DNA of 64,000 nt from Trypanosoma brucei (lineage: Eukaryota). This document shows positions 26,080 to 63,526 of the stretch, in pieces. A program made the position numbers and the translations under genes. How positions within the stretch are numbered: position 1 is the first letter of the stretch; each line of letters starts with the position of its first letter. The stretch lies in assembly GCA_000002445.1 (NCBI GenBank), contig CP000071.1, positions 1,248,001 through 1,312,000 of the forward strand. The letters run 5' to 3'. The notes under the pieces are model-generated. The model had not been told where the DNA came from. It searched no databases and worked only from the letters and a program-made list of their open reading frames with translations.

Positions 26080-26089
26080 GCTTCCTTCC

Positions 26090-26135
26090 TTCCCCGAATA
26101 ATAATAATAATTATTATTATAATTACTACAACAAC
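26090..26135. repeat. (AAT/ATT)n low-complexity tract, representative of the 2.4-kb AT- and trinucleotide-rich spacer 26080-28523
   Basis: taataataataattattattataattactacaacaacg. Similar (CAA)n, (ATA)n and (CAT)n runs occur at 26625-26652, 26856-26880, 28253-28275 and 28396-28430. Confidence 0.8.
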
Positions 26136-38609: not shown

Positions 38610-39260
38610 TTAACAGCACCCGCCACTCGCCTTACCAGCCGGCTGGTTGGAATTGGAAGGCGAAAGGTTCACTGGCTTTTTGGCTGCCGCGCCTGCATTA
38701 AGAGGCGGCCGCTTGCCCGTTGCAGCGGAATCGACCGGCGCCACAACATGGTCATACACCGATTTCGCAAGCCACTCAAAAGCCTTGTCTACGTTTGTTT
38801 TCTCCAACGCGGAGGTTTCGAGGAAAGACAAACCGTTTTCACGGGCAAAGCGGTCAGCCACTTCCTTTTTGATCACACGCAGGTGCTCAAGATCGCATTT
38901 GTTGCCAATGAGAAAGATAGAGCACGTGGCGGGTACGAAGGCGCGGAGCTCCTGAAGCCACGTGGAAATGGAATCAAATGATGTTTGGTTGGTGATGTCA
39001 TAGACGAGCATCGCCCCCTTCGCTCCGTGGTAAATCGAACGGGAGATGGCGCGGAAACGTTCCTGCCCAGCGGTATCCCAAATCTGCACTTTGGCGTCCC
39101 GCCCTTCAATTTTGATGCTTTTTGTCATAAACTCCACGCCGATAGTCGCCGGCGTGTCTTGACTGAACTCATCGGCTGTGTAGCGAGTCATGAGGTTGGA
39201 CTTCCCAACACCGCTGTCACCCACGATAACAACTTTGAACGTAAGGTTCATGTCTTCCAT
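38610..39260 (-). CDS. RAB11: Rab11-family small GTPase
   Basis: G1 GDSGVGKSNLMTRYTADEF (Rab11: GDSGVGKSNLLSRFTRNEF), the switch I/effector TIGVEF, WDTAGQERFRAI, GNKCDL, NGLSFLETSAL (Rab11: NGLSFIETSAL), ETSALE and a C-terminal GGCC prenylation motif. At 216 aa it has the Rab11-like N-terminal extension before the P-loop. Confidence 0.85.
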   Translation of the reverse strand: MEDMNLTFKVVIVGDSGVGKSNLMTRYTADEFSQDTPATIGVEFMTKSIKIEGRDAKVQIWDTAGQERFRAISRSIYHGAKGAMLVYDITNQTSFDSISTWLQELRAFVPATCSIFLIGNKCDLEHLRVIKKEVADRFARENGLSFLETSALEKTNVDKAFEWLAKSVYDHVVAPVDSAATGKRPPLNAGAAAKKPVNLSPSNSNQPAGKASGGCC

Positions 39261-46000: not shown

Positions 46001-46181
46001 CGGCTACACCGCCACCATGGGAAATGGCATTCATCGCCCTGCCCACAAATCGAAGAAAGGAACTGTACGCTGGCGGAAAGACACTTGGAGCTATCAACAC
46101 TGTGAGATTGATGTATTGAACGTAGTTTGCCAACAACTCCACAACATCATATAGCATCGTGTCGAGACCTCCACCAATCAA
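43050..46181 (-). CDS. Polytopic membrane protein (1043 aa), paralog of the 48185-52291 gene
   Basis: At least 10 predicted TM helices. The N-terminus MIGGGLDTMLYDVVELLANYVQYINLTV...TLNLPKWMPPDLR parallels MTFVDLFDMTVAYVQYLYIMV...FTLPNWIPHDSRL in the neighbouring gene. The shared core includes VVCRPYSGPVEFALSLALQLMLVVLAAMGLVSS (vs MMVRPYARPVENWYSISHQLVLTFIGSLGVVGS) and EHYPLEDSG (vs DEYPLEKRI). The long cytosolic S/P-rich region ends in a terminal TM helix VRWLLIFLGISAAAAAALFL. Confidence 0.7.
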   Translation of the reverse strand: MIGGGLDTMLYDVVELLANYVQYINLTVLIAPSVFPPAYSSFLRFVGRAMNAISHGGGVAVTVNGTSKHNNTTRMFEGSTLNLPKWMPPDLRRVFALTNIVAPLSLVVLFAPVLGPPQFIAFAYALCTAVFFLAGCTLLLHAQHSLEVLESGSALLKLVRAIPSDTKVAIAAASAVSVGLLAAVGLTLRLIWGKRRQAQLLEQLRHLEQAPHSVEERVAESLMNIAASHNGCVWRDGEGGMERPVEEREREETRLRCAKAELAYQEMMQRRHGETHAFSLWWALLKLLVLLGSGTAAAFLLRKSLWESTESLFCSPLIYFPVSMLLLTTFFLALSLSVGLSEGGRRWLFDAKLWFRHLFLYTLLLLVSFLYAPLIRSAIGLIPCRDVVDNNAPVACGADNKSTSVLEVDTSKWSTTEARKLMVGSNVSCDSVNFFLYASALLTSTTYATFFILLYGLVTRQALLALEHYPLEDSGSCSARSAEVVPAIGGNTAEAFHHSGNFFGRKWEPARGTVPREGVSQSGRERMRHKNYYGRVHSSQNEVHFLYAPYTFSWRYFKLVVLAQKTAVVIFSAVMQEDDGLASPWTGFIASVILHLGMLVILVVCRPYSGPVEFALSLALQLMLVVLAAMGLVSSFKPAVVSRSLWSFVASCFLLVPCGAILVGGLLASRRQCRLKHRKRTKRRQRGNQVCGFLWDFLTCGLRPKPKHSGSHWFLHHNQEPRSYQIFVPALYFSLLKTELSANAGPLGAATSDRLRRVGSNHLHLRHNRVGDGFNSRAASPSPPAVDHSVPPANSYSTCGSPSPSAPSARPVVTSTSRSRERWAHVRSALFSGRLRSCSPAKTLFSIRQTPVTSSTWREETSEHGGVTTPQTLEPTLSISASSSPLAEEHQLCQRAMTVLFSTVGGACRWGASPCVDVQKSNTRRRLSSVAVYERGSCPYQLISRRNPWASLEGRHCEAFLERAQAVAARQRLIDFYQNQRVHMLRKQRAVDCYINAQAAQMVRWLLIFLGISAAAAAALFLRGVLQVGERHVVVGVLPNCSA

Positions 46182-48184: not shown

Positions 48185-51100
48185 CTACCACCGCAAGATT
48201 TCTTGTTCCGTAACTGGCGTAGTACAGTTCTCAATTTCAACTCTTCCCTTTGGATGCAACTTCAATTTGCATCCGTTTTTGAAATCCATGCCACATAACT
48301 CACGTATTTTGAAACCATCGACAGCTTCGCCTTTAAGGACATCACGCCGCACTCGCTCCTTCACTAGTCTGTTTCTACACACCCACCGCTCTAAAGCCAT
48401 CACGTTGTTTGGCGGTAAGGCAGCGGGTGATGACAAACTGCTGCAGCAACAATTACGAGTGAACTCCTCCCATGATTTGTAACCAAATAGTTGATTGTGC
48501 ACACTGTAAGCACTCTGGGCGTTTGTTAAACTAATATTGTCTCCCTTGTACATCATTCCTCCAATGCACATGGCTAGGGACAGCGTTGAAAAGAGGCAAA
48601 GCGCCACAAAGAAAATTTGCATGTAGCGTCTGATACTCATAGCGATGCGGTGGTCCACAGCCATCTGGAGAGATTCCAACTTCCCTGCCTCAGAATTATA
48701 TTCGTCAACCAACTGTTGTCGAAGCAGGTAATGTCGTCGCAATTTCGGCATATTTTCTGCATTCATATTAGCCGCTCCCCTCACCAGCGCGCGGGCAGAC
48801 GAGACATCCATCCACGATTTTCTTTTCGCAGATGGAGAACCTGCCATTTTCAAGGCAGCGTCCAACGTTACCGATTGTCGTCTCCCTGTTGTTGTGTCCT
48901 TGGGCGACCCCTCAGCTTCGGCTGACTCGCGAGATCCGGTTTCCCTATACTTCTCCAGCGGGTCGGGTATGTCTTCCAGTAGCCTTTGAACAAAAGCCTC
49001 CCAGTTCCCTTCACTTTCTCCCTCAAGGGCGACATGAGGTGCGAACTCGGGGCAGATTGACGGGCGCCGCTCGGTGACAGTAGTGTCTTTAAGATCACGA
49101 GGCAGAAGACGATCTAAATCGGCAGCCTTCAGTTCAGCGAGTGCTGCGCATAGCTGTTCCTTCGAGAGCATGGCGGATATGCGGTCTGAGACATCACTGG
49201 TTATTGTCTGACCGTATGGGTTAACGTTACCTTCCTTAGCGACTGGTAAGTTGCTTGCCACGACAGCCAGTGCGCTGCTCGGGCTATTTGACCCCTTTGT
49301 CTTACCACTACCTTCCTTTGCTGTTTTTGCGGCGGTTACCGCTCTGCTCGATGGGCCAACAAGGGGATTCCAACATTTCTTCTTGTGTTCCACGAGTTTA
49401 GCGAAAAATTGACTTGGTTCATATGGGCTCGACGGACCCTCATCACCTCCAGCGCTTTGGCGTATCGCCGGTACATCACACCCCTCGGCCTTAGCCGCCA
49501 AGAACTGAGACTCGGAAGGAGTGATCCAAAATGGCCTCTCCGCGATGCCAGCCGTCATTTTGAGGGTTCTTCGACTTTGCAGCACCTCCCCATAACGTAG
49601 AGTGTTGCTGTGTACATGAAACGCCTTTCCACACTGCCGCATCCAACGAAGCATTACAGAGAAACAAGAGGGCTTTCCTTTTGTGGCGTCATCTTCCTTC
49701 TTAGCAGAATCGTACTCTTCGCCATGCTGCGTTTCATGGCGCCAACCATCCAACGCGTTAGAGGGAACTGCCACCCCTGGTGGATAGCCGTCGTCAGGCA
49801 AGTAGTCGTCCCCTTCCCTTATTAACGATGACAGTACCGCCTTCAGTTCACCCCTTTTAACTGCTGTCTGTTCGTAGAGCTCATCATCCATCCCACCCCC
49901 CTCACCTTCACCTTCACCTTCGCCACAATCATGGGACAGTGGAACTTCTTTGTATCCACGGAAGTATTCCTGGGGTTCGAAGGATCGTTTGTCACCAAAA
50001 TAATCGTCTTTCATGACCTTTTCCTTCTTGTCAGTCTCTTCGGGTGCATTATGTTCATCCGCAAATACTACAGCTGTTCCTATATCGGCACCATCCGAAG
50101 GCCCTGAAGCCGGTGCCCCCTCTCGATCCGCACGATTCCCACTTCTTTGTCTCGTGTTATCCCCTTTCACCCCACCTCCTGCCGCGGGCAAACTTGCTAA
50201 AACTTGAGGATTCTGTGCAGGTAGACCCGTCTCCCTTCCGTTCGAAGAATCGTTCACTTCGGCGCCTGGTTGCGGGTTATTGGCCATATCCCCCGGTGAT
50301 TGCGCAGAACCAACTGTAGTACCATCTCCACGTGGGGGTAAATCAGGGTCAGTACACGCAGTTGCTTGCCCCTTGCAGTTAGGGTTGTCAAGGCTTTCAC
50401 CCACCACCACGTTATCAGGCGATTGGTTTTCAGCAGTGTCTGCCACAGTTTCGAAATCGCGCTTAAGACGACTCTGTAGTCGCTCCACGCGTTGACGGTC
50501 GTTACGAAAGGTAAGTACAGACCCCACGATAAGGGCAAACATGGGAGCAACAATCATGAGGGCAACCGCAGTTATGGTGACGGCATTTGGAACAAGCTCT
50601 CTGGTCGACATACTCCCCACAACACCGAGAGATCCAATAAACGTAAGAACCAATTGATGCGAAATACTGTACCAGTTTTCCACAGGACGTGCATAAGGCC
50701 TGACCATCATGAGGTACGTCAGGTACACCAAGCAGATGCATGTGATGAGACTAATACCCAACCATGCAACCACTGACCCTGGACCCCGTCGCATCAGTAC
50801 ACCAATAAGGACCAGCAAGATCCTTTGCAAAAGAAACAAAATACGTGACCGACGAAACTGATACTTAAACGCCACGTACAGCGAAGACGAGACGTTTCTG
50901 GACATCAAAGTTTTTTCATAATAAAGCTCCTTTTTATTGAACTCATCACAGATACGCTTTTCAAGTGGGTACTCGTCCACCAGGATGCTCGTAGCTCGAT
51001 CGATTGATAGTATGAGGAAAGCAGGATATGCGACAAAGTAAGCAATGAATACCAACGACATGGACATCTTGTAGAAGTTGTCTATCTCACGGCAGGATAC

Positions 51101-52291
51101 TCGAGGATCGTATGCCAGACGTTTTTCACGAATATTACCACCACATAGCTTAATTTGCAGCGATTTAGAACATTTCTGCGTGTGCTCCGTGAAGTTGCAA
51201 GCAAGACAAGGTTTTTCAGTTGTATCCCAGGAGTTTGAAAAGTTTCTCGACCCCCCTACAGCGGATTTCATTCTGATCATCATCTCTCCTTCATTACAAG
51301 ACACCTCAGTGCACACTAACAACCTCATCATATTCAGTGTCACCGGAGTAAAGGCAATGGAGAGGGCAATCAGCGCAGTACTGGTGAGTGCTTTGGACAA
51401 TTTGTCCGTCAGTTTAACCTGTATCTGTCTCCCCTTTTGAGAAATACTGAGTAAAGCCCATATGACAATTACGCTACTGGCAACAAAAAATGTAATAGCC
51501 ACTGCTTTATCATAACGGCCTATTTTCAAGGCTTCAGCTGAATCTTCTGTTGGCAATGTAACGTATATGAAGTATCCCGCTGCAATAGCAATGCCGCAAA
51601 CGAGCAGTTGGATTAAAATGCTGCGCCACCTACGAGCCTGGACATACACCTCTTTTTTTGCTTCGTAAGCGAGCAAGGCAGACGTTGCCCTCTTGTTTTG
51701 CGTCACACGTCTCACAGCTTTTTGTATTGCGGATACCTCTTCCCGATGCTCGGCCCCCCGATCGGCGGCCATTTCCAATCGTCTCTTTTTTTTCTGACTC
51801 CGACGTAACATGAATAGATAGATGATGCCTGCAACAAAGAGAACAATGAGACCCACTCCACCAGCGAGAACAAGAATCCTTTGTGTTTCGCGGGTCATTA
51901 TTTCCATTTTTTCTGCGCGAGGCGTGGAGACAAGCACTGCGCCAAGTACTGTAAAGAAAACGGCCACCACTTGCGCGAAAAGACAGAGGGACGCGCCCGT
52001 CGAAGACACAATCAAGAACCCTCCAAGAGAGATGACCATGGGAATAATGACAACAATAAATGTGTAGTTTAGGCGACTGTCGTGGGGAATCCAGTTGGGA
52101 AGTGTGAACATTTGTTCCCTTTTTTGTGAATCCCCCGTTAGATAATCATACGATATATGTAATAATGCCAACTGGCCTTTCGAAAGCGGCTGCAGAATTA
52201 TTTCTGGGAAGCTGTTTGGTGAGAGAGAGACCATGATGTACAAGTATTGCACGTATGCCACCGTCATGTCAAATAGGTCAACGAAAGTCAT
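48185..52291 (-). CDS. Polytopic membrane protein (1368 aa), paralog of the 43050-46181 gene, with longer cytosolic region and Cys-rich C-terminal tail
   Basis: It has the same N-terminal TM core as the upstream paralog, a roughly 600-aa hydrophilic region (GEGEGEGEGGG, acidic and basic stretches), a late TM helix MQIFFVALCLFSTLSLAMCIGGMMY, and a roughly 120-aa C-terminal segment with CCC, CRNR, CGMDFKNGC and C in ENCTTP. Confidence 0.7.
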   Translation of the reverse strand: MTFVDLFDMTVAYVQYLYIMVSLSPNSFPEIILQPLSKGQLALLHISYDYLTGDSQKREQMFTLPNWIPHDSRLNYTFIVVIIPMVISLGGFLIVSSTGASLCLFAQVVAVFFTVLGAVLVSTPRAEKMEIMTRETQRILVLAGGVGLIVLFVAGIIYLFMLRRSQKKKRRLEMAADRGAEHREEVSAIQKAVRRVTQNKRATSALLAYEAKKEVYVQARRWRSILIQLLVCGIAIAAGYFIYVTLPTEDSAEALKIGRYDKAVAITFFVASSVIVIWALLSISQKGRQIQVKLTDKLSKALTSTALIALSIAFTPVTLNMMRLLVCTEVSCNEGEMMIRMKSAVGGSRNFSNSWDTTEKPCLACNFTEHTQKCSKSLQIKLCGGNIREKRLAYDPRVSCREIDNFYKMSMSLVFIAYFVAYPAFLILSIDRATSILVDEYPLEKRICDEFNKKELYYEKTLMSRNVSSSLYVAFKYQFRRSRILFLLQRILLVLIGVLMRRGPGSVVAWLGISLITCICLVYLTYLMMVRPYARPVENWYSISHQLVLTFIGSLGVVGSMSTRELVPNAVTITAVALMIVAPMFALIVGSVLTFRNDRQRVERLQSRLKRDFETVADTAENQSPDNVVVGESLDNPNCKGQATACTDPDLPPRGDGTTVGSAQSPGDMANNPQPGAEVNDSSNGRETGLPAQNPQVLASLPAAGGGVKGDNTRQRSGNRADREGAPASGPSDGADIGTAVVFADEHNAPEETDKKEKVMKDDYFGDKRSFEPQEYFRGYKEVPLSHDCGEGEGEGEGGGMDDELYEQTAVKRGELKAVLSSLIREGDDYLPDDGYPPGVAVPSNALDGWRHETQHGEEYDSAKKEDDATKGKPSCFSVMLRWMRQCGKAFHVHSNTLRYGEVLQSRRTLKMTAGIAERPFWITPSESQFLAAKAEGCDVPAIRQSAGGDEGPSSPYEPSQFFAKLVEHKKKCWNPLVGPSSRAVTAAKTAKEGSGKTKGSNSPSSALAVVASNLPVAKEGNVNPYGQTITSDVSDRISAMLSKEQLCAALAELKAADLDRLLPRDLKDTTVTERRPSICPEFAPHVALEGESEGNWEAFVQRLLEDIPDPLEKYRETGSRESAEAEGSPKDTTTGRRQSVTLDAALKMAGSPSAKRKSWMDVSSARALVRGAANMNAENMPKLRRHYLLRQQLVDEYNSEAGKLESLQMAVDHRIAMSIRRYMQIFFVALCLFSTLSLAMCIGGMMYKGDNISLTNAQSAYSVHNQLFGYKSWEEFTRNCCCSSLSSPAALPPNNVMALERWVCRNRLVKERVRRDVLKGEAVDGFKIRELCGMDFKNGCKLKLHPKGRVEIENCTTPVTEQEILRW

Positions 52292-53371: not shown

Positions 53372-54404
53372 GCCTCATACACCTACTCTTCTTCTTTTTT
53401 TTCTTTTGTTCCCCTTCCACTCTATCAAGTTCTTAGTGCTCTTCTCAACAACGTTTTTCCATATTTCCTCGCCCCCGAGTAACAAAATGTCCGCCACAAA
53501 TATTTCTCTCTTGTCAAACTTGTCCCTCTCCCGACTTTCTTTCCCTGTGATACAGGTGTGGAAATAAGAAGGGAGTGTACAGGAAATAAAGATGAAACCC
53601 AAAACAAATAAAACCGACAGGATGGAAAAAAAAAACAAAAGGAAAGGAAAGTATATATAGTGCGACAAGCACCTTTACAGCAAGATGAAACTAATAATAA
53701 TAATAATAACAATAGAAACATAGCACTGGAAGACATATATTTTTTTTACGCATATACATGCACGTATATATACATATATATGCACAAAAAGTGTCGACAC
53801 GCAGGAGAACGGAAGAGGAGTCGCAACCAAAGATAATCAAAAAGACAAATAAAGCACGTTCGTGCACAACAATTTAATGAAAAGTTACTGCATAGGTACT
53901 CAAATCCACACTAGAGAGAGTGTGCCGACTAGAGGCGACCAACAACCACGGCGAACGGAGCTGAATGTCCACTAACGGATAAAGTTGCATAGTAACAAAA
54001 AAAAAACAGCTGACCAAACTATATTGTTATTGTGGAGAGAAAGGTTACATATGGTCACCGTACATTCCTTTACTTTATTTGGATGCCCTAACCCTATTTT
54101 ATGAAGCCGAATGCTGGCCGTTTATATTTTCTATTGGCTTCCATATCCCGTTGTCCACGAGGCTCTAACATACAGAAGCCACGTGTAATGCCACATATAT
54201 AAACAGATGTATATTCACCTTTGGCATGGATTACTCGCAGCACATGGGAGATGGTCAAGAGGGGCACGCACACATATAATTAACACCTCTCAAAGTATAG
54301 TTCTCCTGTTTCAAATTTCTGCGCACGATGACGCAGTCCGTGCCTATCGCTGGGATACTGGCACCAATTCGTACCATAATTAACGCTAAACGCACGGGTT
54401 CGGC

Positions 54405-57179
54405 TCACTTTGGTGCACTCTGGATCACTCGGTAAACCCCAATAATTGCCCCAACAAAACCAACAATGGCACCCGTTGGATGGATCATCGCTTTTAGAGG
54501 AGCATCCCGCTTCCCTGTGTCGTACCCCCCAAAGCAGTACATCACAGCAAGGTAAAACTCCGCTAAGTAACTCACCTGAAGCCAAATGGTAGCACTCCAG
54601 TTAGAATGAGATCGCACCAACCATATGTAGTTGAAAAGCCTTCGCATCAGCCACGGAATAAACAGAAAGACAACCTCAGCGCGTCCTGTTATCGACTTAG
54701 ACGCTTTTTGCCGTACAGCGGCATTCCCATTGGTCTCAACTTCCTCCGTGTCAGTGACGCCTTTTTCCTCCGCTGTTGTGTCATCACCACCCTCCTCGAG
54801 CTTTTCACCCTGTTCGTCGGGTGATGTCATCTCAACAAAGAGCTTGCCGCATACACGACAGGCGGGGGCGATGTTCTCCGGATCAGCAGCCTCAAAGTAA
54901 CCCGGGGAGGAGCAAATGGGCACGCCGAAATCGAGATCCACATCTGGGAAGTACAAATTTGCCTGCCGCCGGATAACGAGCTCACGGAAAAGCATTACGG
55001 AGCCCCTTGTGTCGGGGTCCTTACAACCACAGCGAAACCTGGGATTGTCTCTGACATTTGTATACTTGTACCAACCGGGGTTCAACAGACGAATTGTGTT
55101 CAGGAGGACGTCAATGCTGGCAACTATCAACCATAGCCAGTGGCAGTGCCGTTGAAGAAGCGCACGGTTTTTCTCAACCGGTGACAGGTTTAAAAAGTGC
55201 TCAGATGAAAGCAGGAGGAGGTCGCGGAGCAGACGGCGGGCAATAGTCGCGATACTGCGCACGGCCTGAAGTAGTATGAGAGGTGTGCTGAACTGGAGAA
55301 TACCCTTGCGTCGACTCGCAGGTTTCCCCATCTCTGCTGCAAGACCTCTCTCCCTCTCTTCTTCCCTGTCGTCAGAGGGAGAGACAGTACCATTAGACTC
55401 TAAGTGGTTATCACCTTCATCAAAGGCTGCACCGAGTGAGAACATGTTCTCTTCTGCACCTATATCATCACCGTTATCAACAGCACTCCCACAACGTGCA
55501 AACTTGGCTCTAGAGGGTTGGTTCTTTGACATTTTGTTCATACTGTCACCTTCACCTTGGTGAGGCAACCGCAGAGCATCACCAAGCTTCGGTTCGTACG
55601 GCACAGTTTGGTACATTTTAAAATAACTCTGATGAGAGTCATCAGGATTTCTGCTCGTTGAGAAACCCTCGTTGTATGTGTCGCCTTTGGGTTTCCCTTC
55701 TTGCATCAAACTATAATTAAGCGAACCACCGCAAATGCTGCTGGGTGCCGTATTGTTGTTGTGAGCGATTGATGTGTTGTTGCTGTTGCTTGACTCATCA
55801 TCGGCTCCAGTGCATCGGAGTGGCCGCAGTAACGTGGCAGGTTTTGATAGTGACGCCCTTGTGGTGTTACCAATACCAACTGCATACATCTCAGTGGCGG
55901 CAGGGTATAATGACGGAGGGGTCGCGGAAGGGGCGAGAGAACCCGAAGTGAGCGCCTCAGTTCGCAGCGGATCACGAACCATGAGACCTTTACCTTCTGA
56001 TAGTGTTGAGAAACCCGCCACCTTGCGGTCTCCATCTTCTTTAGCCTCCTCGCTTTGCAACGCCATATCAGACGCTTTAATGGCACCAGAAACTCCCACC
56101 TCCTTCTGTTGTATCCCGGTCAGACTCGGACCAGTAGTAACTAATTTCGCATCGATAGAATGCAACTCTGAGACGAACTGACGAGGAAACTCCACACGAG
56201 CGACGTGCTCATATGTGTCACCAGGAACCAAAACTTCCCTATTCACAAACTGACCGGCGCTTCCTCCCCCAACACCATTGTTGTCCCACCCGATAAGTCG
56301 TCGCATCACGGACCCCGGTGGAAGGGATAAGTATCGGCATAAGAACGCCTTAAATTCACCCTTCACCTCCCTCATAGTCCTTCCATATTTCAAGGCAAGT
56401 CTTTCGTAAACCTCCTGCAGGTAAAAAGCATTCACTATCCAACGCCCCAACTTGAACAAGCTGCGTCCGTGGCGAATGGTGTTAATATTTTTTCGAAAAC
56501 GTTCTGCCCAGTAATCTGCAGTCTCCTCCGAACCCTGTGGGAGGATTGACGGCCGCATCAAAAGACAAATTAAAAGATGCAAACTACACTGCATACACTT
56601 AAATAATCTGTCCCGACCGTCTGAAGCTGTCAACAAATAAAGAAATGTGCTTCGTGGAAGGTCATTAGGAATCAAGAACGCCATGTTGTCATCAGCACCC
56701 TGCAAGAAACCACCTACTCGCACCTGCGTGCGGTCAAAGTTGTCACCATCTCTACGTGAAACAACCCTGTTAGCAATATCTGCCTCCTCATCGTCGTCCA
56801 GACCATCTTCATCTTTTTCTGTGCCAGTGTTTGGATAAATAACTGTCATGAATGGGTCAACGGTGCCTGAATCTAAAAAACCTTCTGGAGAGCCATCGCC
56901 GGCCGGATCGGCTGCGTCGTCTTTACGCTTTGAACTCTCTTTGGGGAAGCCAAGTTCCTCCTGCAGAAGCTGTGAAGAAGTTCCTATTTTCACCACTCTC
57001 TTACGCGGTACTGGTGCTTTAATCGCAGATGATCCAGCGACCGCGTCAGGCAAAAACTCCTCCTCATTATTATTATTATTGTTATTATGTGCCCCAGCAA
57101 CAGCAGCGTCGCATCCGCTGTTGTTACTGTCAGCCATTAATCCGCAGCTACTGCACGGTAGTTCGTGGCTGATAACCAA
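54405..57179 (-). CDS. Giant PEX11-family protein (glycosome/peroxisome membrane-remodelling family) with about 550-aa insertion and Cys cluster
   Basis: aa 188-246 DGRDRLFKCMQCSLHLLICLL...HGRSLFKLGRWIVNAFYLQE matches the PEX11 N-terminal signature (human PEX11A QGRDRLFRATQYTCMLLRYLL...TGRKWFRLGNVVHAIQA; yeast GREKVLRLLQY). The C-terminus KAMIHPTGAIVGFVGAIIGVYRVIQS matches the PEX11 C-terminal helix NPGIIGLGGLVSSIAGMITVAYPQ. Between them lie a long disordered insert and RCGCKDP...CSSPGYF...CRVCGKLF. An alternative start at Met166 (MAFLIPNDL..., about nt 56684) would put GRDRLF at the canonical position. Confidence 0.6.
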   Translation of the reverse strand: MVISHELPCSSCGLMADSNNSGCDAAVAGAHNNNNNNNEEEFLPDAVAGSSAIKAPVPRKRVVKIGTSSQLLQEELGFPKESSKRKDDAADPAGDGSPEGFLDSGTVDPFMTVIYPNTGTEKDEDGLDDDEEADIANRVVSRRDGDNFDRTQVRVGGFLQGADDNMAFLIPNDLPRSTFLYLLTASDGRDRLFKCMQCSLHLLICLLMRPSILPQGSEETADYWAERFRKNINTIRHGRSLFKLGRWIVNAFYLQEVYERLALKYGRTMREVKGEFKAFLCRYLSLPPGSVMRRLIGWDNNGVGGGSAGQFVNREVLVPGDTYEHVARVEFPRQFVSELHSIDAKLVTTGPSLTGIQQKEVGVSGAIKASDMALQSEEAKEDGDRKVAGFSTLSEGKGLMVRDPLRTEALTSGSLAPSATPPSLYPAATEMYAVGIGNTTRASLSKPATLLRPLRCTGADDESSNSNNTSIAHNNNTAPSSICGGSLNYSLMQEGKPKGDTYNEGFSTSRNPDDSHQSYFKMYQTVPYEPKLGDALRLPHQGEGDSMNKMSKNQPSRAKFARCGSAVDNGDDIGAEENMFSLGAAFDEGDNHLESNGTVSPSDDREEERERGLAAEMGKPASRRKGILQFSTPLILLQAVRSIATIARRLLRDLLLLSSEHFLNLSPVEKNRALLQRHCHWLWLIVASIDVLLNTIRLLNPGWYKYTNVRDNPRFRCGCKDPDTRGSVMLFRELVIRRQANLYFPDVDLDFGVPICSSPGYFEAADPENIAPACRVCGKLFVEMTSPDEQGEKLEEGGDDTTAEEKGVTDTEEVETNGNAAVRQKASKSITGRAEVVFLFIPWLMRRLFNYIWLVRSHSNWSATIWLQVSYLAEFYLAVMYCFGGYDTGKRDAPLKAMIHPTGAIVGFVGAIIGVYRVIQSAPK

Positions 57180-58376
57180 TTCTGTTCCCTACAGGAGAAC
57201 CAAAGTAAAAGAGGGTAAATGAAAAAAAAAAAGGGAGGCGGGAGAAATAGGGCAGTAGTACGGGGCAAAAATACACGGATCGACGCCCGTCACACTTTCT
57301 CCTTCCCGCTATAAACCGAAAAAATAAAACGAAAACACATACACACACACACAAAAAAAAAAAAAGAGCGACGTTCCACAGTTCCATTTTTTTTGTACGT
57401 ATACCACCACGCGAAGCACACAAACCGGATGGAAATATCACATCACAAACCTCACATTCATGTGTTTAAAGGTGCCTAATACAACAAGCCCAATAATGTA
57501 GAAACATGTACACCGCCTCTAGCGAAAAAAAAAAAATGGCTCAGGCACCTCATGAATAATGTGCCCTCAACTATACAAGGAGAATCCCAGTGGTTGTCTA
57601 ATTGAAAAGACACACAAACTCGGAAATTATGAAAATTCACACCGCTACCTTAATAGTTTGAAACACTTCCTCCCTAAGTCACAGTTCTTCATCTTAGTTT
57701 CCCTAGCTTGGCTACAGCAAGGGATGGTTGCGGGTTAAACAAGCGTGCACCACACACGTATCTATTTATATATGCATAGTTAAGTCATACACTAATAACC
57801 CCCTGTTTAAAAAAAAAAGACAAAAAACAAAAAGCTAATAAAGAGAGGTTTGCAAAAGCTGAAGTGAAGTATTACACCACACATTTTCACCCTGAGGTGG
57901 ACAAGAGTTATCCAAGTAAACGGAAGACAGGTCAGACGATGCGGACCGACAACTTAGTGATAATAACAACAACTTGTTCGCTGGAAGTTTAGCATTTTAG
58001 CGGAGGAAACGAAAACAAGCTGTTTTTTTTTAAAAATCGATGGCTCGCGACAAAGAAAGTGCCCAACAAAAAAAAGTTGTACTGAAGAAGATTTAAAGCA
58101 CAACACCCCGTTACACGTCCAGTTGGTGCCTGAGAAAATTAGTTTCCTCCACCATTTGAATTTTTCGCCCACAACTCTCACCACTCACATCCAATACTCA
58201 CGATATCGACGCCTGCTGCTTCACCCTCCCCGCAAAACTATTCCTCGTTACTTTCCCGCAGGGCCTTTGATTCTCATTTACCCTTTCCCTCTTCCTTCTT
58301 TTGGTGCTCATCGGCCTCAACATACTCTTCTCCTATATTTTTTTCCCCCTTCCTCTGGCTCCCTTAATCAATAAAT

Positions 58377-59266: not shown

Positions 59267-60715
59267 TCAGTCCTCAGGACTGTAGTTTTCCCGAACGATG
59301 CGGTGAATCTGCGACGGCGTGTACTCCGACTCGTTAGTTGCGTAGAGCGTAATCAACTCTGGAGGCACATACTCCGTCACTGGTGAGTGCACCACAAAAG
59401 AGCCAAACGTGTCAACATCAGCTCCGTACGGAGCTGGCAGTACATCACCTGGAGACCCGTATGTGTTCCACGGTATTTCTTGTGCTGAAGAACGAGAAAT
59501 TTTCACCAGGCTTGTGCAGTACGCATCACTGGGGTAAAATGGAGTCATTTTTATGGTTGCGGTTACTACGAGCACGGGAACGGCAAAATGCTTGGCTGCG
59601 ATACAAAGTGGATGGGTTCCAATAGGCGCAAGAATCCCGCCATTTGCGAGGACGTTTTCAGCACCGATCAGCACTTTTGTGCAGGTACCCATAACCGCAA
59701 ATGCAGAGCTGTCGGGTAACACTTGCACTTCTGCGTGCTTGGAGCGTAGCTCCGCTGCTAATTTATGGGACGCCTCGCACAGAAGAGGTGCACCCTCCAA
59801 AATAATAACTTTAAACGAAGTTCCCGCTGACAGAGCATGTAAGAGGTACCGACGGGTTGTATGGCTGCTACCTGTTGTTATTACCGTGTCTGTTGGGTGC
59901 AGTTGCTTTACCGCACGCTCGCATAGGGCGTCGCACATCCCCTCTATTTCAGCACGGAGTTCTACAATATGTTGCAAGACACAGTTGAAAAAATCGTGGG
60001 CGTGTACGAGCACGGCCGCTTCCTCACGCACCACGCTGTCCACCTCACGCCGACTCGGCGCCCTGCGGAGTGTTTGCCTGCCAGGGATGCCAACGGTTGA
60101 TATTTCCTGCTCCTCTTCCTCATAACTCTCATTGGAATCATTTGTAGTGCCCGTCCCCCGTCCTGTACCGCCTGCAACTGAGCACACGCCACTCGACTGC
60201 CGATTAGTGGTCGCCAGCCGCTGCATATCCAACGAAGCACTTTTCTCATTGTCTGACCCACCCGCATCCCCCTTCTCAAAGCTATCAACCTCATTACTGC
60301 TCACTTTACATTCAACGGCAGCCGTACGAATAAAAGAGAGCACGCGACGCGTGACATTTGTGAGCAGAAGCGTACCAAATTGGGCGCGCAACATTGCGTC
60401 ACCAGTGAATGAGATGAGCCATATCAGTCGATGCACGTCCCTAGAGGTTATAATCTCACAGGAGTGGGAGTGAGTCCCTGTAGTGCCTTTCTTTTCCAGA
60501 TGGTTTTTAAATTCTGTAATAATTTCGTGCATAAGCTGCACCGAGCCGCTGGCTGCCGTCATCGAAAAGCTTTTACCATCACGCGGCCCCAACTTGCCGC
60601 GGCGAACGTTTCCCACAAACTTCTCAATAAGATCCCCGATAATCTCCATTAAAGGTGAGGCCTCCTCTTGTATCCGAATCGATCGTTTCCCCATCGCAAC
60701 TATGACTGCTACCAC
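59267..60715 (-). CDS. Translation initiation factor eIF2B regulatory subunit (IF-2B family, delta-like)
   Basis: The C-terminal 300 aa carry the IF-2B fold motifs VITTGSSHTTRRYLLHA, KVIILEGAPLLCE, VLIGAENVLANGGILAPIGTHPLCIAAKHFAVPVLVV and the family-terminal EYVPPELITLYATNESEYTPSQIHRIVRENYSPED (compare human eIF2B-delta ...PPELITLFISN...IYRLMSELYHPDD). A roughly 200-aa N-terminal extension is consistent with the delta (or beta) subunit. Confidence 0.8.
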   Translation of the reverse strand: MVAVIVAMGKRSIRIQEEASPLMEIIGDLIEKFVGNVRRGKLGPRDGKSFSMTAASGSVQLMHEIITEFKNHLEKKGTTGTHSHSCEIITSRDVHRLIWLISFTGDAMLRAQFGTLLLTNVTRRVLSFIRTAAVECKVSSNEVDSFEKGDAGGSDNEKSASLDMQRLATTNRQSSGVCSVAGGTGRGTGTTNDSNESYEEEEQEISTVGIPGRQTLRRAPSRREVDSVVREEAAVLVHAHDFFNCVLQHIVELRAEIEGMCDALCERAVKQLHPTDTVITTGSSHTTRRYLLHALSAGTSFKVIILEGAPLLCEASHKLAAELRSKHAEVQVLPDSSAFAVMGTCTKVLIGAENVLANGGILAPIGTHPLCIAAKHFAVPVLVVTATIKMTPFYPSDAYCTSLVKISRSSAQEIPWNTYGSPGDVLPAPYGADVDTFGSFVVHSPVTEYVPPELITLYATNESEYTPSQIHRIVRENYSPED

Positions 60716-61519: not shown

Positions 61520-63526
61520 TCACCGCTGGCGTTCCTCCCGCAGCCGGCGCCTCTCTTCACGGCGCAGCACTACCGCAGCCAAGCGTTTAATCTGCTCACG
61601 GCCCAACGGCTCATCATTGTCCAATAGAGCCATAGAGCGCCTGCCTTCCTCAGTGTCATCCTCGTGTTCACCAGAGTCGCTTGATACTGTAGAAATGCCA
61701 AGCTTTCCCCCACCAATGGGTACGATGCCATTTGTAACGCTATCTGTGAAGCAGCTCCCCTTGTCAAAGAAGCAGCTTCCATCCGTTTCCGGTGACGGCG
61801 GATTGTTTGTAACGGGGGTTGACGTTGTTGGAGTTGCCGTTTTGGCCTGTTCCTTTATAGAACACAGCTTCACACGCGTGTTGGACGATGGAAGGTTCAC
61901 GTGAATAGATGCCACACATGGCGCTGTTGAAGTGCGGTCCACCGTTTCGTCGGCAAGGGATAGTATTTTTGCCCCCAAGAGTTGCAAATTTGTAACAACA
62001 TTTTCAATCTTTGTCCGCGGAACCACAACCTCAGGCTTATACAATGAAACTTGCTCTGCGAGTACATCTGTGTGCTGCACCACCTCCGCCAGAATGCGTT
62101 CCAGTGTTGTCAGCTCCCCCAGAGCTGAGTCACGTTTACACGACGCATCGGTAACGTAGCTATCCAACTCGCTCTTCATGCAGAACGTTACAGGTGCGGG
62201 GTGTACGTAGGTAACTTCGTGATCCTTTACTTTTTTCTTCAGTCTCGCAACCTCATTCTGAAGGTCTTCAAGTCTTTTTTGCTCGTCGCGGTACTGTTTT
62301 TGAAGCTGTTCACGCAGCGCCTGCTCTTGGGAAAACTTATTCACAAGGTCGTCAAGTGACTCTGCTTCTGTCACACGCATCATTTTTACAAAACTTTTTT
62401 CGAACGCTCTCATGCGCTCCTCATCCTTCGCCGATCCACTTGCAAGAAGGGCATTAGCGATCCTGTCAGATAATTCAGCCCGTTGATTGTAGTCAGACGT
62501 ACCAGCAACCACAGAATTTCGATCAGGGGGTAATATAGTTCGTCGTCGCCTCTGCAGGACAAGTTGCTTCTCTATTTCAGCTTCTTCGATGCGCTGTAAT
62601 TCCTCATCAATTTCCTGCTGCAACTCCACTTGCCGCTGCTCAAGACCTTGTGTTTGACGTAGTGCAGTTTCCACACGAAGTCTTCTGTCAGCAAGGGCTT
62701 TGTCTTTCAAATGCCGTGCCTGCTGAAAAGAGGAATCAAAGCTCTTTAAATCCCTTTGCACGTTTTCATATTGCGATGTAGCGTTGTGATAGAGTGTTAC
62801 AAGGCGCGCATATTCCTGGTGGCGAATATCAAGGTGCTGCTCCAGAGCACGCGTGCGGGCATCACGACCAATAGAATCTTCCACAAGCTCCTTCAACAGC
62901 TCACGGTACCCATCATTAATCCTCGCAACAAACCGCTGGTGCCCCAGTGTCTGATCAAGAAATTTTTCGAGACGATGAATCCGCAATGCTACACTTTTGC
63001 TTCCTGACACGGCGCCATCTTTGGCTGCCTCAGAAAGCTCCCTTTCGTTGGTTACACGCTCCTCCTCATTTCTGCGAATTCCTTCCTCGATCTTTCTCAC
63101 TTGGTGTGTCAGGCGGTTCAGCCGTCTTATTGTTGCATATTTGCGACGGTCCAAAAGTTCCAACTCCCGGTCCGTTACGTTCTTGCCACAGGCACGAATG
63201 GAGCGGAGGTGCGTATTTTCATCGTGCATCATACGCACTTGCGCGCGATTGGAGGCAATTTTCTGTTGATACTCCCGTACCACCTTGGTCCGCTGAGCAC
63301 TGATCTCATTAATCCGCTGCATGTAAAGTTCCACTTCATTTTTTGGTGCCTCAGCCACAGTAGCGTGGCGCGACCCCGCATTGGTTCGCTGTTTCGAGGG
63401 TTGCTTTGGACTCAACTTCCGTTGATCATTCCCGGCAGCATCCCCGCGGGCACTTCGACTTTGAACGGAGGATCCCTGTGCTGGCGGAGACGAGCGCCCC
63501 GCTGCCGCTGAAGGCAACCTAGTCAT
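61520..63526 (-). CDS. Coiled-coil protein (668 aa), possibly of the CCDC63/CCDC114/CCDC151 outer-dynein-arm docking-complex family
   Basis: The central roughly 450 aa are heptad-rich and alpha-helical: ...RLNRLTHQVRKIEEGIRRNEEERVTNERELSE..., RIHRLEKFLDQTLGHQRFVARINDGYRELLKELVED, LQQEIDEELQRIEEAEIEKQ. The pattern R-I-x-x-LE-x-x-LD-x-x-L...N..YRELLKEL resembles the docking-complex family RVLENRLDKAL...NKELREEIDHLRRE. The termini are non-coil and S/T-rich. Confidence 0.55.
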   Translation of the reverse strand: MTRLPSAAAGRSSPPAQGSSVQSRSARGDAAGNDQRKLSPKQPSKQRTNAGSRHATVAEAPKNEVELYMQRINEISAQRTKVVREYQQKIASNRAQVRMMHDENTHLRSIRACGKNVTDRELELLDRRKYATIRRLNRLTHQVRKIEEGIRRNEEERVTNERELSEAAKDGAVSGSKSVALRIHRLEKFLDQTLGHQRFVARINDGYRELLKELVEDSIGRDARTRALEQHLDIRHQEYARLVTLYHNATSQYENVQRDLKSFDSSFQQARHLKDKALADRRLRVETALRQTQGLEQRQVELQQEIDEELQRIEEAEIEKQLVLQRRRRTILPPDRNSVVAGTSDYNQRAELSDRIANALLASGSAKDEERMRAFEKSFVKMMRVTEAESLDDLVNKFSQEQALREQLQKQYRDEQKRLEDLQNEVARLKKKVKDHEVTYVHPAPVTFCMKSELDSYVTDASCKRDSALGELTTLERILAEVVQHTDVLAEQVSLYKPEVVVPRTKIENVVTNLQLLGAKILSLADETVDRTSTAPCVASIHVNLPSSNTRVKLCSIKEQAKTATPTTSTPVTNNPPSPETDGSCFFDKGSCFTDSVTNGIVPIGGGKLGISTVSSDSGEHEDDTEEGRRSMALLDNDEPLGREQIKRLAAVVLRREERRRLREERQR

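What the first reader, a model, noticed from the sequence alone, without database searches (positions are those of the whole stretch)
54405..57179. A 924-aa PEX11-family protein: canonical N- and C-terminal PEX11 signatures split by an insertion of about 550 aa carrying a Cys cluster
PEX11-family proteins (PEX11, and in trypanosomes GIM5A/B) are 25-30 kDa glycosomal/peroxisomal membrane proteins that tubulate and divide the organelle. Here the two ends of a PEX11 domain are recognisable: DGRDRLFKCMQC...HGRSLFKLGRWIVNAF at aa 188-250, which is nearly identical to human PEX11A GRDRLF...GRKWFRLGNVV, and the terminal amphipathic/TM helix HPTGAIVGFVGAIIGVYRVI. Between them sits a long, mostly disordered insertion that includes RCGCKD-x24-CSSPGYF-x14-CRVCGK, a possible zinc-ribbon-like element, plus an N-terminal poly-Asn and acidic extension. 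Either this is a giant, possibly regulated, glycosome membrane-remodelling factor, or the ORF start is miscalled and Met166 (MAFLIPNDL...) is the true start. In either case it is an atypical PEX11 architecture.
Basis: partly seen in the sequence, partly recalled or inferred. Interest (0 to 1): 0.7.

Follow-up and report, generated by a model that had tools for sequence, protein, structure and literature searches.

The report
Giant divergent PEX11-family glycosome membrane protein
This Trypanosoma brucei gene (Tb927.8.4370, so far labelled "hypothetical") encodes a 100-kDa glycosomal membrane protein that is a stretched-out, highly divergent relative of the organelle-dividing factor PEX11, carrying a four-cysteine module and long floppy insertions that ordinary PEX11 proteins lack.

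Summary
The ORF is real. It lies on the minus strand, 54405-57137 from the first ATG, and encodes 910 aa rather than 924. It is T. brucei TREU927 XP_847268/Q57VZ8, which I map to Tb927.8.4370.

The T. brucei protein itself gives no Pfam hit. The PEX11 reading holds at family level:
- Compact 330-500 aa relatives score up to 51 bits on PF05648; 7 of 10 pass the curated cut-off.
- The family profile aligns end to end with a Pfam-positive kinetoplastid PEX11 group (hhalign 99.6%, E 8e-24).
- It also aligns with the N-terminal signature of mammalian PEX11A (E 3e-5 to 3e-6).

The "550-aa disordered insertion" is wrong. The PEX11 fold is split into three conserved blocks:
- H1-H3, aa 164-270
- H4-H5, aa 601-690
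- H6-H8, aa 819-910

The truly variable pieces are a 330-aa disordered insert, a 48-aa acidic linker and the N-terminal extension. The Cys cluster (C703, C705, C760, C763) is a conserved module that defines the family.

Published proteomics already places Tb927.8.4370 in the carbonate-resistant glycosomal membrane fraction. I found no paper calling it PEX11-like.

Verdict: a new variant of a known kind. Function (membrane remodelling or a scaffold) is inferred, not shown.

The parts
54405..57137 (-). Complete CDS, 910 aa plus stop. Equals T. brucei TREU927 XP_847268.1 / UniProt Q57VZ8, mapped to Tb927.8.4370.
   Evidence: ORF list. Exact-sequence look-up. Gene ID assigned by matching the molecular weights of five window ORFs to File S1 of bioRxiv 10.1101/2023.10.13.562043.
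57189..57263 (-). Putative trans-splice acceptor: a long polypyrimidine tract followed by the first AG (57190/57189), about 50 nt upstream of the ATG.
   Evidence: Read directly from the sequence. Inference from the usual trypanosome splice-site layout; not tested with RNA data.
56733..57137 (-). N-terminal extension, aa 1-135: poly-Asn, acidic, poorly conserved. Contains one conserved island, DPFMTVIYP.
   Evidence: 12-21% identity to orthologues, net charge -16, 74% disorder-promoting residues. pLDDT <35. Alignment A1.
56649..56732 (-). Family-specific conserved motif just before helix 1, aa 136-163 (RTQVRVGGF...LIPNDLPRS).
   Evidence: 46-86% identity. R136, V141, G143 and L155-P161 are invariant in A1. 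Also present in mid-size and compact relatives.
56328..56648 (-). PEX11 block 1, helices H1-H3, aa 164-270. Holds the GRDRLFKxxQ signature (region equivalent to the PEX19-binding site BS1 of TbPEX11) and GRSLFKLGRW.
   Evidence: Only Pfam hit of this segment is PEX11, profile 4-74, E 0.096. Orthologue hits to profile 5-77. hhalign to mammalian PEX11A E 3.3e-5. BLASTP to human PEX11A 28% over 78 aa. BS1 described in PMC10469627.
56421..56477 (-). Basic amphipathic helix, aa 221-239 (IRHGRSLFKLGRWIVNAFY). Candidate equivalent of the membrane-bending Pex11-Amph helix.
   Evidence: Hydrophobic moment 0.69, among the two highest peaks in the protein. Its position matches the GRKWFRLG segment of PEX11A.
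55338..56327 (-). Insertion 1, aa 271-600: a 330-aa fast-evolving, disorder-type segment between H3 and H4. Absent from compact relatives.
   Evidence: 13-33% identity, 68% disorder-promoting residues. No secondary structure and pLDDT ~25. Absent in the 330-376 aa relatives.
55812..55838 (-). Conserved short linear motif inside insertion 1, aa 434-442 (ATLLRPLRC; consensus [KT]-T-L-L-x-P-[LI]).
   Evidence: L436, L437 and P439 are invariant in A1. The motif is found once in each of P0001-P0017 (17 long family members) and not in the seven longest, most divergent ones.
55068..55337 (-). PEX11 block 2, helices H4-H5, aa 601-690. Holds a strongly amphipathic helix (621-641) and the most hydrophobic helix after the C-terminal one (664-686).
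   Evidence: 42-83% identity. Helices in both AF2 runs. Mapped from P0045. Aligns to the central part of the PEX11 domain: hhalign A2 vs A5 covers it, and Pfam hits of P0045, P0044 and P0050 extend to profile 140-145. Hydropathy.
54828..55067 (-). Family-defining Cys module, aa 691-770: C703-x-C705 ... C760-x2-C763 plus FP.(V/L)DLD.G.P and EAA.P motifs. Putative Cys4 metal site.
   Evidence: The CxC...CxxC pair is present in most full-length members from 330 to 1989 aa; P0038, P0049 and P0054 lack the CxC and outgroup P0050 lacks both. The four Cys are invariant or >=90% in A3/A4. Short beta elements (222-225, 231-233) flank the CxxC in the confident P0045 model. No known Pfam domain; Zn_ribbon E>=4.
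54684..54827 (-). Insertion 2, aa 771-818: acidic, unconserved linker.
   Evidence: 10-27% identity, net charge -8, 88% disorder-promoting residues.
54408..54683 (-). PEX11 block 3, helices H6-H8, aa 819-910, ending in the Gly-rich hydrophobic helix and the conserved SAPK tail.
   Evidence: 46-78% identity. Three hydrophobic segments. The C-terminus of compact relative P0045 hits Pfam PEX11 profile 175-222/222, E 9.4e-4. Collinear hhalign matches to the PEX11-domain group and to the PEX11A C-terminus.

Best explanation
The gene encodes a single 910-aa integral glycosomal membrane protein (Tb927.8.4370). It belongs to a small, very divergent branch of the PEX11 superfamily, whose named members are all kinetoplastids.

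The ancestral unit is about 330 aa. It is a PEX11-type bundle of eight helices with a four-cysteine module, probably a structural Cys4 metal site, inserted in the loop between helix 5 and helix 6. Ordinary PEX11 proteins have a variable loop at that position.

In trypanosomatids this unit was stretched threefold by three additions:
- an acidic N-terminal extension;
- a 330-aa disordered insert between helices 3 and 4, carrying a conserved TLLxPL peptide motif;
- an acidic linker after the Cys module.

Inferred mechanism (not shown):
1. The conserved GRDxLFKxxQ helix serves as a PEX19-binding targeting element, as in TbPEX11.
2. The basic amphipathic helices (aa 221-239 and 621-641) lie in or deform the glycosomal membrane, as in PEX11.
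3. The disordered extensions act as a platform for partners or regulation, for example the fission machinery. They are cytosolic if the N-terminus is cytosolic as in TbPEX11.
4. With helix 5 as the first membrane span, the Cys module would face the organelle lumen.
For: Shown:
- One ORF, collinear in all orthologues from 886 to 1989 aa.
- Identity to XP_847268/Q57VZ8.
- Only 45 relatives among 1.84 billion representatives. The named ones are Trypanosoma, Leishmania, Porcisia and Papus.
- Pfam PEX11 is the top hit for all 10 compact relatives tested, and 7 are above the cut-off. P0045 scores 51.3 bits (E 1.4e-13, profile 4-140) and P0050 scores 46 bits.
- The P0045 C-terminus matches profile 175-222.
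- A T. theileri construct with the inserts removed scores 27.7 bits, above the 23.8-bit cut-off.
- hhalign of the trypanosomatid core against the Pfam-positive group: 98%, E 2.7e-13.
- hhalign of the family without P0050 against that group: 99.6%, E 8.2e-24, 267 columns end to end.
- hhalign against mammalian PEX11A: N-terminus E 3.3e-5 and 3e-6, plus a collinear C-terminal second hit at E 2.7e-3.
- The AF2 model of compact relative P0045 is confident (pLDDT 89.9, pTM 0.89). It is all helical apart from a small beta element at the CxxC.
- Region-wise conservation, amphipathicity and hydropathy.

From the literature:
- Tb927.8.4370 (100.38 kDa) is a class-1 glycosomal membrane candidate. It is enriched in the carbonate-resistant pellet (1.0 against 0.027 in total glycosomes) and rated 'high-confidence' glycosomal in Guther 2014 (File S1 of bioRxiv 10.1101/2023.10.13.562043).
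- The N-terminal PEX11 motif region is the PEX19-binding site BS1, and both TbPEX11 termini are cytosolic (PMC10469627).
- PEX11-family proteins co-purify with the dynamin-like protein in Crithidia (bioRxiv 10.64898/2026.04.27.721030).
Against: - The T. brucei sequence on its own fails the Pfam PEX11 model: no full-length hit at E<=10, the N-block scores only 12.6 bits, and the C-block gives nothing.
- The full-length AF2 model is unusable (pLDDT 33.9), and AlphaFold-database fold libraries were unavailable. Fold-level similarity to PEX11 models was therefore not tested.
- PDB searches gave only generic helical matches.
- The gene ID was assigned through matching molecular weights of neighbouring genes, not through a database look-up.
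- Table 1 of the proteomics preprint is an image. I could not see whether the protein survived manual curation.
- Metal binding, topology, PEX19 binding and any effect on glycosome shape or number are untested.
- The authors of the inventory ran Foldseek on class-1 proteins and reported only two 27-kDa new PEX11-family members, not this one.
Confidence: 0.7

Rival explanations
1. PEX11-derived in sequence but functionally moved on. Rather than tubulating membranes, the protein could act mainly as a tether or scaffold, for example at glycosome-ER or glycosome-mitochondrion contacts, using its long disordered arms. Alternatively it could act as a solute pore like yeast Pex11.
For: - It is extremely divergent from canonical PEX11; the T. 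brucei protein fails Pfam.
- More than half of it is disordered sequence, with a conserved peptide motif typical of docking sites.
- Trypanosomes already have PEX11, GIM5A/B and two further small family members for the classical role.
- Pex11-family proteins are reported at contact sites and as channels (PMC8172628 and PMC9512073).
Against: - The amphipathic helices and the overall helical core are conserved, which fits a retained membrane-active role.
- There is no direct evidence for contacts or for pore activity.
Confidence: 0.25
2. Not a true PEX11 homologue. The resemblance is limited to a short shared PEX19-binding or amphipathic motif at the N-terminus and a generic Gly-rich hydrophobic C-terminal helix.
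For: The T. brucei protein has no significant direct Pfam hit. Against mammalian PEX11A only about 60 N-terminal columns align with confidence.
Against: - Compact relatives match the Pfam model over positions 4-145 and 175-222, not just the motif.
- The end-to-end profile alignment with a Pfam-positive PEX11 group gives E 8.2e-24 over 267 columns.
- The C-terminal match to PEX11A is as strong as that between two accepted PEX11 groups.
Confidence: 0.04
3. The ORF is mis-annotated: either two adjacent genes were read through, or the true start is the internal Met (MAFLIPNDL).
For: The central 330 aa are poorly conserved and look non-globular. No transcript data were available.
Against: - The same collinear architecture occurs in every orthologue.
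- Conserved coding motifs lie upstream of the internal Met.
- A polypyrimidine tract plus AG sits just upstream of the first ATG.
- Compact relatives join the blocks directly in one protein.
- A 330-codon open stretch arising by chance has a probability of about 1e-7 (my own estimate).
Confidence: 0.02

Closest known systems
PEX11 proper (Pfam PF05648: human PEX11 alpha/beta/gamma, yeast Pex11, TbPEX11 Tb927.11.11520)
   Same: - N-terminal GRD(K/R)LF..xQY helix and GR..F.LG amphipathic helix.
- The same order of helices, and a C-terminal Gly-rich hydrophobic helix.
- Peroxisome or glycosome membrane location.
- A variable loop at the position where the Cys module sits.
   Different: - 100 kDa instead of 24-30 kDa.
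- The T. brucei protein fails the Pfam model directly.
- A conserved Cys4 module lies between helix 5 and helix 6.
- It has a 330-aa disordered insert between helices 3 and 4, an acidic N-terminal extension and a family-specific LIPNDLP motif.
- Function is untested.
Kinetoplastid 315-448 aa PEX11-domain group (P0064, T. vivax 'putative PEX11'; P0050, P0058-P0063)
   Same: It is the nearest detectable relative. The alignment runs end to end (hhalign 99.6%, E 8e-24). It shares the HTHQGRDKLFK...NxRRLFRxGRF and IDLxLNTxRL motifs and the ...GLxSGxxSVYRVW C-terminus.
   Different: That group passes Pfam and lacks the four cysteines. In the same loop it carries a different motif, FSLLSxYDxVDK. It also lacks the long disordered insert.
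GIM5A/B and the two 27-kDa 'new PEX11 family' proteins Tb927.10.8410 and Tb927.9.11640
   Same: They are divergent PEX11-family glycosomal membrane proteins of trypanosomes. All appear in the same glycosomal membrane inventory.
   Different: They are small (26-28 kDa) and were recognised by structure comparison. This protein was listed only as hypothetical.
Zinc-ribbon / zinc-knuckle Cys4 modules
   Same: Two cysteine pairs (CxC and CxxC), 43-60 residues apart. The CxxC lies between two short beta elements in the model.
   Different: No match to any Pfam zinc-ribbon model (E>=4). The first pair is CxC rather than CxxC. The module is embedded in a membrane-protein loop that may face the organelle lumen. 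Metal binding is untested.

Membership tests
PEX11 (Pfam PF05648) | The protein itself scores at or above the curated Pfam cut-off (23.8 bits) | tested here: not met
   Full length: no hit at E<=10. N-block alone: 12.6 bits, E 0.096. C-block and H4-H5 block alone: no hit.
PEX11 (Pfam PF05648) | Homology to the family shown through relatives or profiles (transitive membership) | tested here: met
   - Orthologues score 16.7-22.2 bits.
- A T. theileri construct with inserts removed scores 27.7 bits.
- All 10 compact relatives have PEX11 as top hit, 7 above the cut-off, up to 51.3 bits.
- hhalign to the Pfam-positive group: 98% and 99.6%, E 8.2e-24.
- hhalign to mammalian PEX11A: E 3.3e-5 and 3e-6.
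PEX11 (Pfam PF05648) | Conserved N-terminal helix with the GRD(K/R)L..R/K..QY signature (the PEX19-binding site BS1 region of TbPEX11/ScPex11) | tested here: met
   The sequence GRDRLFKCMQC at aa 174-184 is invariant at G174, R175, D176, F179, K180 and Q183 and aligns to PEX11A GRDRLFRATQY. Actual PEX19 binding cannot be tested here; the BS1 definition is from PMC10469627.
PEX11 (Pfam PF05648) | Basic amphipathic helix after the GR..F.LG motif (Pex11-Amph) | tested here: met
   aa 221-239 has a hydrophobic moment of 0.69 with several basic residues (R222, R225, K229, R232). A second amphipathic helix at 621-641 reaches 0.79. Membrane bending itself cannot be tested here.
PEX11 (Pfam PF05648) | Collinear C-terminal hydrophobic helices ending in a Gly-rich helix | tested here: met
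   Hydrophobic segments at 822-841, 851-869 and 881-909. The P0045 C-terminus hits profile 175-222/222. Collinear hhalign hits.
PEX11 (Pfam PF05648) | Integral peroxisomal or glycosomal membrane protein | not testable with these tools
   Published proteomics lists Tb927.8.4370 as a class-1 glycosomal membrane candidate, carbonate-resistant, and high-confidence glycosomal in Guther 2014. I assigned the gene ID to this ORF from matching neighbour molecular weights.
PEX11 (Pfam PF05648) | Compact size of about 25-30 kDa with no extra domains | tested here: not met
   100.2 kDa. It has three lineage-specific disordered additions plus a Cys module.
PEX11 (Pfam PF05648) | Controls organelle elongation and number (over-expression tubulates, loss gives fewer and larger organelles) | not testable with these tools
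   No experiment was found in the searchable literature. No main text mentions Tb927.8.4370.
PEX11 (Pfam PF05648) | PEX11-like three-dimensional fold | tested here: inconclusive
   The confident model of compact relative P0045 is a bundle of long helices. AlphaFold-database libraries were not available, and the PDB holds no informative match.
Zinc ribbon / Cys4 zinc module | Four conserved metal-ligand cysteines in two pairs | tested here: met
   C703, C705, C760 and C763. Both pairs are present in most full-length members (exceptions: P0038, P0049, P0054 and outgroup P0050) and are invariant or >=90% in A3/A4.
Zinc ribbon / Cys4 zinc module | Match to a known zinc-ribbon profile or fold | tested here: not met
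   Only noise-level Pfam hits: Zn_ribbon_RPAB4 at E 4 and Zn_ribbon_4 at E 8.3 on P0044. The exhaustive profile search found the module nowhere outside this family.
Zinc ribbon / Cys4 zinc module | Metal binding | not testable with these tools
   Needs recombinant protein and metal analysis. Two disulfides are an untested alternative.
GIM5 (trypanosome PEX11-related proteins) | Sequence relationship to GIM5A/B | not tested
They did not appear among the 45 hits of the family profile.

The most novel reading that the evidence does not exclude
Kinetoplastids evolved a PEX11-derived membrane protein in which a metal- or redox-sensitive Cys4 module faces the glycosome lumen, and a long cytosolic disordered arm with a conserved TLLxPL docking motif faces outward. 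The protein would then couple the internal state of the organelle (metal or redox) to recruitment of division, turnover or contact machinery. That would be a signalling-competent PEX11 with no counterpart in yeast, plants or animals.
Probability: 0.1. Interest if true: 0.8.

Novelty: new variant of a known kind. Interest (0 to 1): 0.5.

Why it matters
Glycosomes are essential for trypanosomatid parasites, and their biogenesis factors are pursued as drug targets.

This result gives a family assignment, a domain map and testable sites to an abundant, parasite-specific glycosomal membrane protein that databases still call "hypothetical". The testable sites are the PEX19-type helix, two amphipathic helices, four cysteines and a conserved peptide motif.

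It also shows that the PEX11 scaffold can tolerate insertions splitting it into three blocks and can host an extra Cys4 module. This widens the known architectural range of the family. It also explains why both Pfam and a published Foldseek screen of the same protein list missed it.

Tried and rejected
- **Pfam on the full protein and on separate blocks.** No usable hit.
- **PDB sequence search.** Nothing.
- **AF2 of the full 910-aa protein with 10 orthologues.** pLDDT 33.9, discarded.
- **Fold searches against AlphaFold-database libraries.** Not installed.
- **Literature and supplements.**
  - Tb927.8.4370 appears in no main text.
  - No supplements are held for the PEX38 and DLP preprints.
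  - It was not found in the TrypTag or Jansen supplements as stored.
- **Taxonomy of compact relatives.** Cluster look-ups gave no names except Papus.
- **Synteny.** The Rab gene next to compact relative P0057 is only 35% identical to the window's Rab11, so synteny was rejected.
- **The two published 'new PEX11 family' proteins.** I considered whether this gene is one of them. Rejected: they are 27-28 kDa, Tb927.10.8410 and Tb927.9.11640.
- **One inflated comparison.** The A4 vs A5 C-terminal hhalign (98.7%) shares P0050 on both sides. I repeated it without P0050.


Full report
**What is in the sequence**

An open reading frame runs on the minus strand from 57179 to 54405. The ORF lister starts it at a TTG. 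The first ATG is at 57137, giving 910 aa and 100.2 kDa.

That 910-aa sequence is exactly T. brucei brucei TREU927 XP_847268.1 / UniProt Q57VZ8, "hypothetical protein, conserved", on a 2.48-Mb record.

A long polypyrimidine tract (about 57195-57263) followed by the first AG at 57190/57189 lies about 50 nt upstream of this ATG. That is the usual layout of a trypanosome trans-splice acceptor. This is an inference; no RNA data were available.

The window is a one-strand gene array with about 45-50% GC.

**Gene identity**

File S1 of bioRxiv 10.1101/2023.10.13.562043 lists molecular weights for chromosome 8 proteins. Five window ORFs match, in gene order:

| Window ORF | Size | Matched gene | Listed size |
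|---|---|---|---|
| 877-2136 | 46.14 kDa | Tb927.8.4210 (WD) | 46.138 kDa |
| 15323-16723 | 53.61 kDa | Tb927.8.4250 | 53.579 kDa |
| 38610-39260 | Rab, 23.53 kDa | Tb927.8.4330 | 23.527 kDa |
| 54405-57137 | 100.22 kDa | Tb927.8.4370 | 100.38 kDa (strain 427) |
| 61520-63526 | 75.93 kDa | Tb927.8.4400 | 75.932 kDa |

I therefore take the gene to be Tb927.8.4370.

- The full protein has no Pfam hit even at E<=10 and no PDB sequence relative.
- The N-terminal block alone has PEX11 as its only hit. It scores 12.6 bits (E 0.096, profile 4-74). The C-terminal block and the middle block give nothing.

**Family-level evidence**

Orthologues exist in T. congolense, T. vivax, T. cruzi, T. theileri, T. 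rangeli, Leishmania and Porcisia. They are 886-1331 aa, all unnamed and without Pfam domains.

Their alignment shows three conserved blocks rather than two ends: aa 136-270, aa 601-770 and aa 819-910.

- Three orthologues hit PEX11 just under the cut-off. T. theileri scores 22.2 bits, E 1.1e-4, profile 7-77.
- A T. theileri construct with the variable parts removed passes the cut-off, 27.7 against 23.8 bits.

An exhaustive profile search of 1.84 billion representatives found only 45 relatives. Among them are compact proteins of 330-500 aa that contain all three blocks joined directly.

- PEX11 is the top Pfam hit for all ten of these that I scanned, and seven exceed the cut-off.
- P0045 scores 51.3 bits (E 1.4e-13, profile 4-140). 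P0050 scores 46 bits (profile 4-145).
- The C-terminus of P0045 alone matches the end of the model, profile 175-222/222, E 9.4e-4.

A profile search with the compact forms retrieved a sister group of 315-448 aa proteins. These carry the Pfam PEX11 domain and include a T. vivax entry named "putative PEX11".

Profile-profile comparisons:

| Query | Target | Result |
|---|---|---|
| Trypanosomatid core | Sister group | 98%, E 2.7e-13, 160 columns |
| Cys family without P0050 | Sister group | 99.6%, E 8.2e-24, 267 columns, end to end |
| Trypanosomatid core | Mammalian PEX11A | 72.5%, E 3.3e-5 (N-terminal signature) |
| Wider family | Mammalian PEX11A | 88%, E 3e-6 (N-terminal signature) |
| Cys family without P0050 | Mammalian PEX11A | collinear C-terminal second hit, E 2.7e-3 |

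The C-terminal match to PEX11A is about as strong as that between the accepted PEX11-domain group and PEX11A.

The pairwise match is 28% identity over 78 aa, not near-identity.

**Anatomy**

A model of compact relative P0045 built with 31 family sequences is confident (pLDDT 89.9, pTM 0.89). It has long helices at 10-40, 50-91, 95-126, 138-167, 249-292 and 301-329. A mostly non-helical module at 168-248 includes short beta elements around the CxxC.

Mapped to T. brucei:

| Residues | Element |
|---|---|
| 1-135 | Acidic, poly-Asn extension (12-21% identity to orthologues) |
| 136-163 | Family-specific RTQVRVEGY...LIPNDLP motif |
| 164-270 | H1-H3 |
| 271-600 | Insertion 1 (13-33% identity, disorder-type composition) |
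| 601-690 | H4-H5 |
| 691-770 | Cys module |
| 771-818 | Acidic linker (10-27% identity) |
| 819-910 | H6-H8 |

- The two strongest amphipathic helices are aa 221-239, the position of the PEX11 amphipathic helix, and aa 621-641.
- Hydrophobic segments lie at 181-199, 664-686, 822-841, 851-869 and 881-909.
- The four cysteines C703, C705, C760 and C763 are invariant or nearly so. The CxC...CxxC pair occurs in most full-length members from 330 to 1989 aa, with 43-60 residues between the pairs.
- The sister group lacks these cysteines.
- The module matches no known Pfam domain and was found in no other protein context.
- Inside insertion 1 one short motif, [KT]-T-L-L-x-P-[LI], is conserved in 17 long members.

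**What this corrects**

- The "insertion of about 550 aa, mostly disordered" is really 330 + 48 aa of variable sequence. These flank two core helices and a conserved module.
- The Cys spacing is x34 and x11.
- The alternative start at MAFLIPNDL is excluded by conserved coding sequence upstream of it.
- A two-gene reading is excluded by collinearity in all orthologues and by the compact forms.

**Where the protein is**

In the glycosomal membrane inventory preprint, Tb927.8.4370 has these properties:
- It is a class-1 candidate with mean correlation 0.979 to glycosomal membrane markers.
- It is strongly enriched in the carbonate-resistant pellet.
- It is flagged "high-confidence" glycosomal from Guther et al. 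2014.

The same paper reports two new PEX11-family proteins found by structure comparison. Those are the 27-28 kDa Tb927.10.8410 and Tb927.9.11640. No main text in the searchable library mentions Tb927.8.4370. Table 1 of the preprint is an image, so I could not check the final curated status.

**How it probably works (inferred)**

[quoted passage not shown] TbPEX11 has both termini in the cytosol (PMC10469627).
- I therefore expect PEX19-dependent insertion, cytosolic N-terminal and insertion-1 segments, and amphipathic helices acting on the membrane as in PEX11.
- If helix 5 (664-686) is the first span, the Cys module and the acidic linker would face the lumen. Confidence in this is low.
- PEX11-family proteins act as adaptors or activators of dynamin-related proteins in other systems, and they co-purify with the dynamin-like protein in Crithidia (bioRxiv 10.64898/2026.04.27.721030). 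The disordered arm and its TLLxPL motif are candidates for such recruitment.
- A tether or channel role is a live alternative.

**Limits**

- Fold comparison with AlphaFold-database PEX11 models could not be run. PDB searches were uninformative.
- The organisms behind most compact relatives are unknown. Only Papus, a kinetoplastid, is named.
- All functional statements are inference.

**Verdict**

This is a real, single gene. It is a divergent member of the PEX11 superfamily with an unusual split, expanded, Cys-bearing architecture, and published proteomics already places it in the glycosomal membrane, unnamed. It is a new variant of a known kind, of moderate interest.

Noticed in passing
window 43050-46157 (-) and 48185-52291 (-): Two neighbouring large ORFs (1035 and 1368 aa, probably Tb927.8.4350/4360) start with similar N-termini (…VAYVQYLYIMVSLSPNSFPE and …LANYVQYINLTVLIAPSVFPPA). 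The 1368-aa one is rich in hydrophobic stretches. Neither has any Pfam hit. They look like tandem paralogues of an uncharacterised membrane protein family.
   Followed up: partly
window 55812-55838 (-), aa 434-442: A short motif, [KT]-T-L-L-x-P-[LI]-[KR], is conserved across trypanosomatids inside an otherwise unconserved 330-aa disordered insert. Its partner is unknown.
   Followed up: partly
proteins P0050, P0058-P0064 (not in the window): A separate group of 315-448 aa kinetoplastid-type PEX11-domain proteins is the closest relative of the family studied here. It has the motifs HTHQGRDKLFK...SVYRVWTYGR and FSLLSxYDxVDK, and it includes a T. vivax 'putative PEX11'. Its size fits none of the five T. 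brucei PEX11-family proteins named in the literature I read, so trypanosomes may have still more family members.
   Followed up: partly
locus L001 (JGI metagenome 3300045738, 5648 bp): The contig carrying compact relative P0057 is gene-dense. All genes lie on one strand with roughly 150-250 bp spacers, and GC is 61%. A Ras/Rab-type GTPase sits directly upstream, but it is only 35% identical to the window's Rab11, so this is not clear synteny. The source organism is unknown.
   Followed up: partly
window 38610-39260 (-): A 216-aa Rab GTPase (23.53 kDa) matches Tb927.8.4330. It helped anchor the gene numbering.
   Followed up: yes
window 26001-28000: A markedly AT-rich stretch (GC 0.34 against about 0.45-0.53 elsewhere) lies between genes of the array.
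   Followed up: no
window 55706-56086 (-), 55774-56181 (+), 56848-57222 (+), 54280-54585 (-): Several ORFs of 100-135 aa overlap the gene in other frames or on the other strand. They fall inside a conserved coding region and are most likely chance ORFs.
   Followed up: no
window 59267-60694 (-): The downstream neighbour is an IF-2B family protein (Pfam PF01008, E 3.9e-37). The domain lies in the C-terminal part, after roughly 200 residues with no Pfam match.
   Followed up: no
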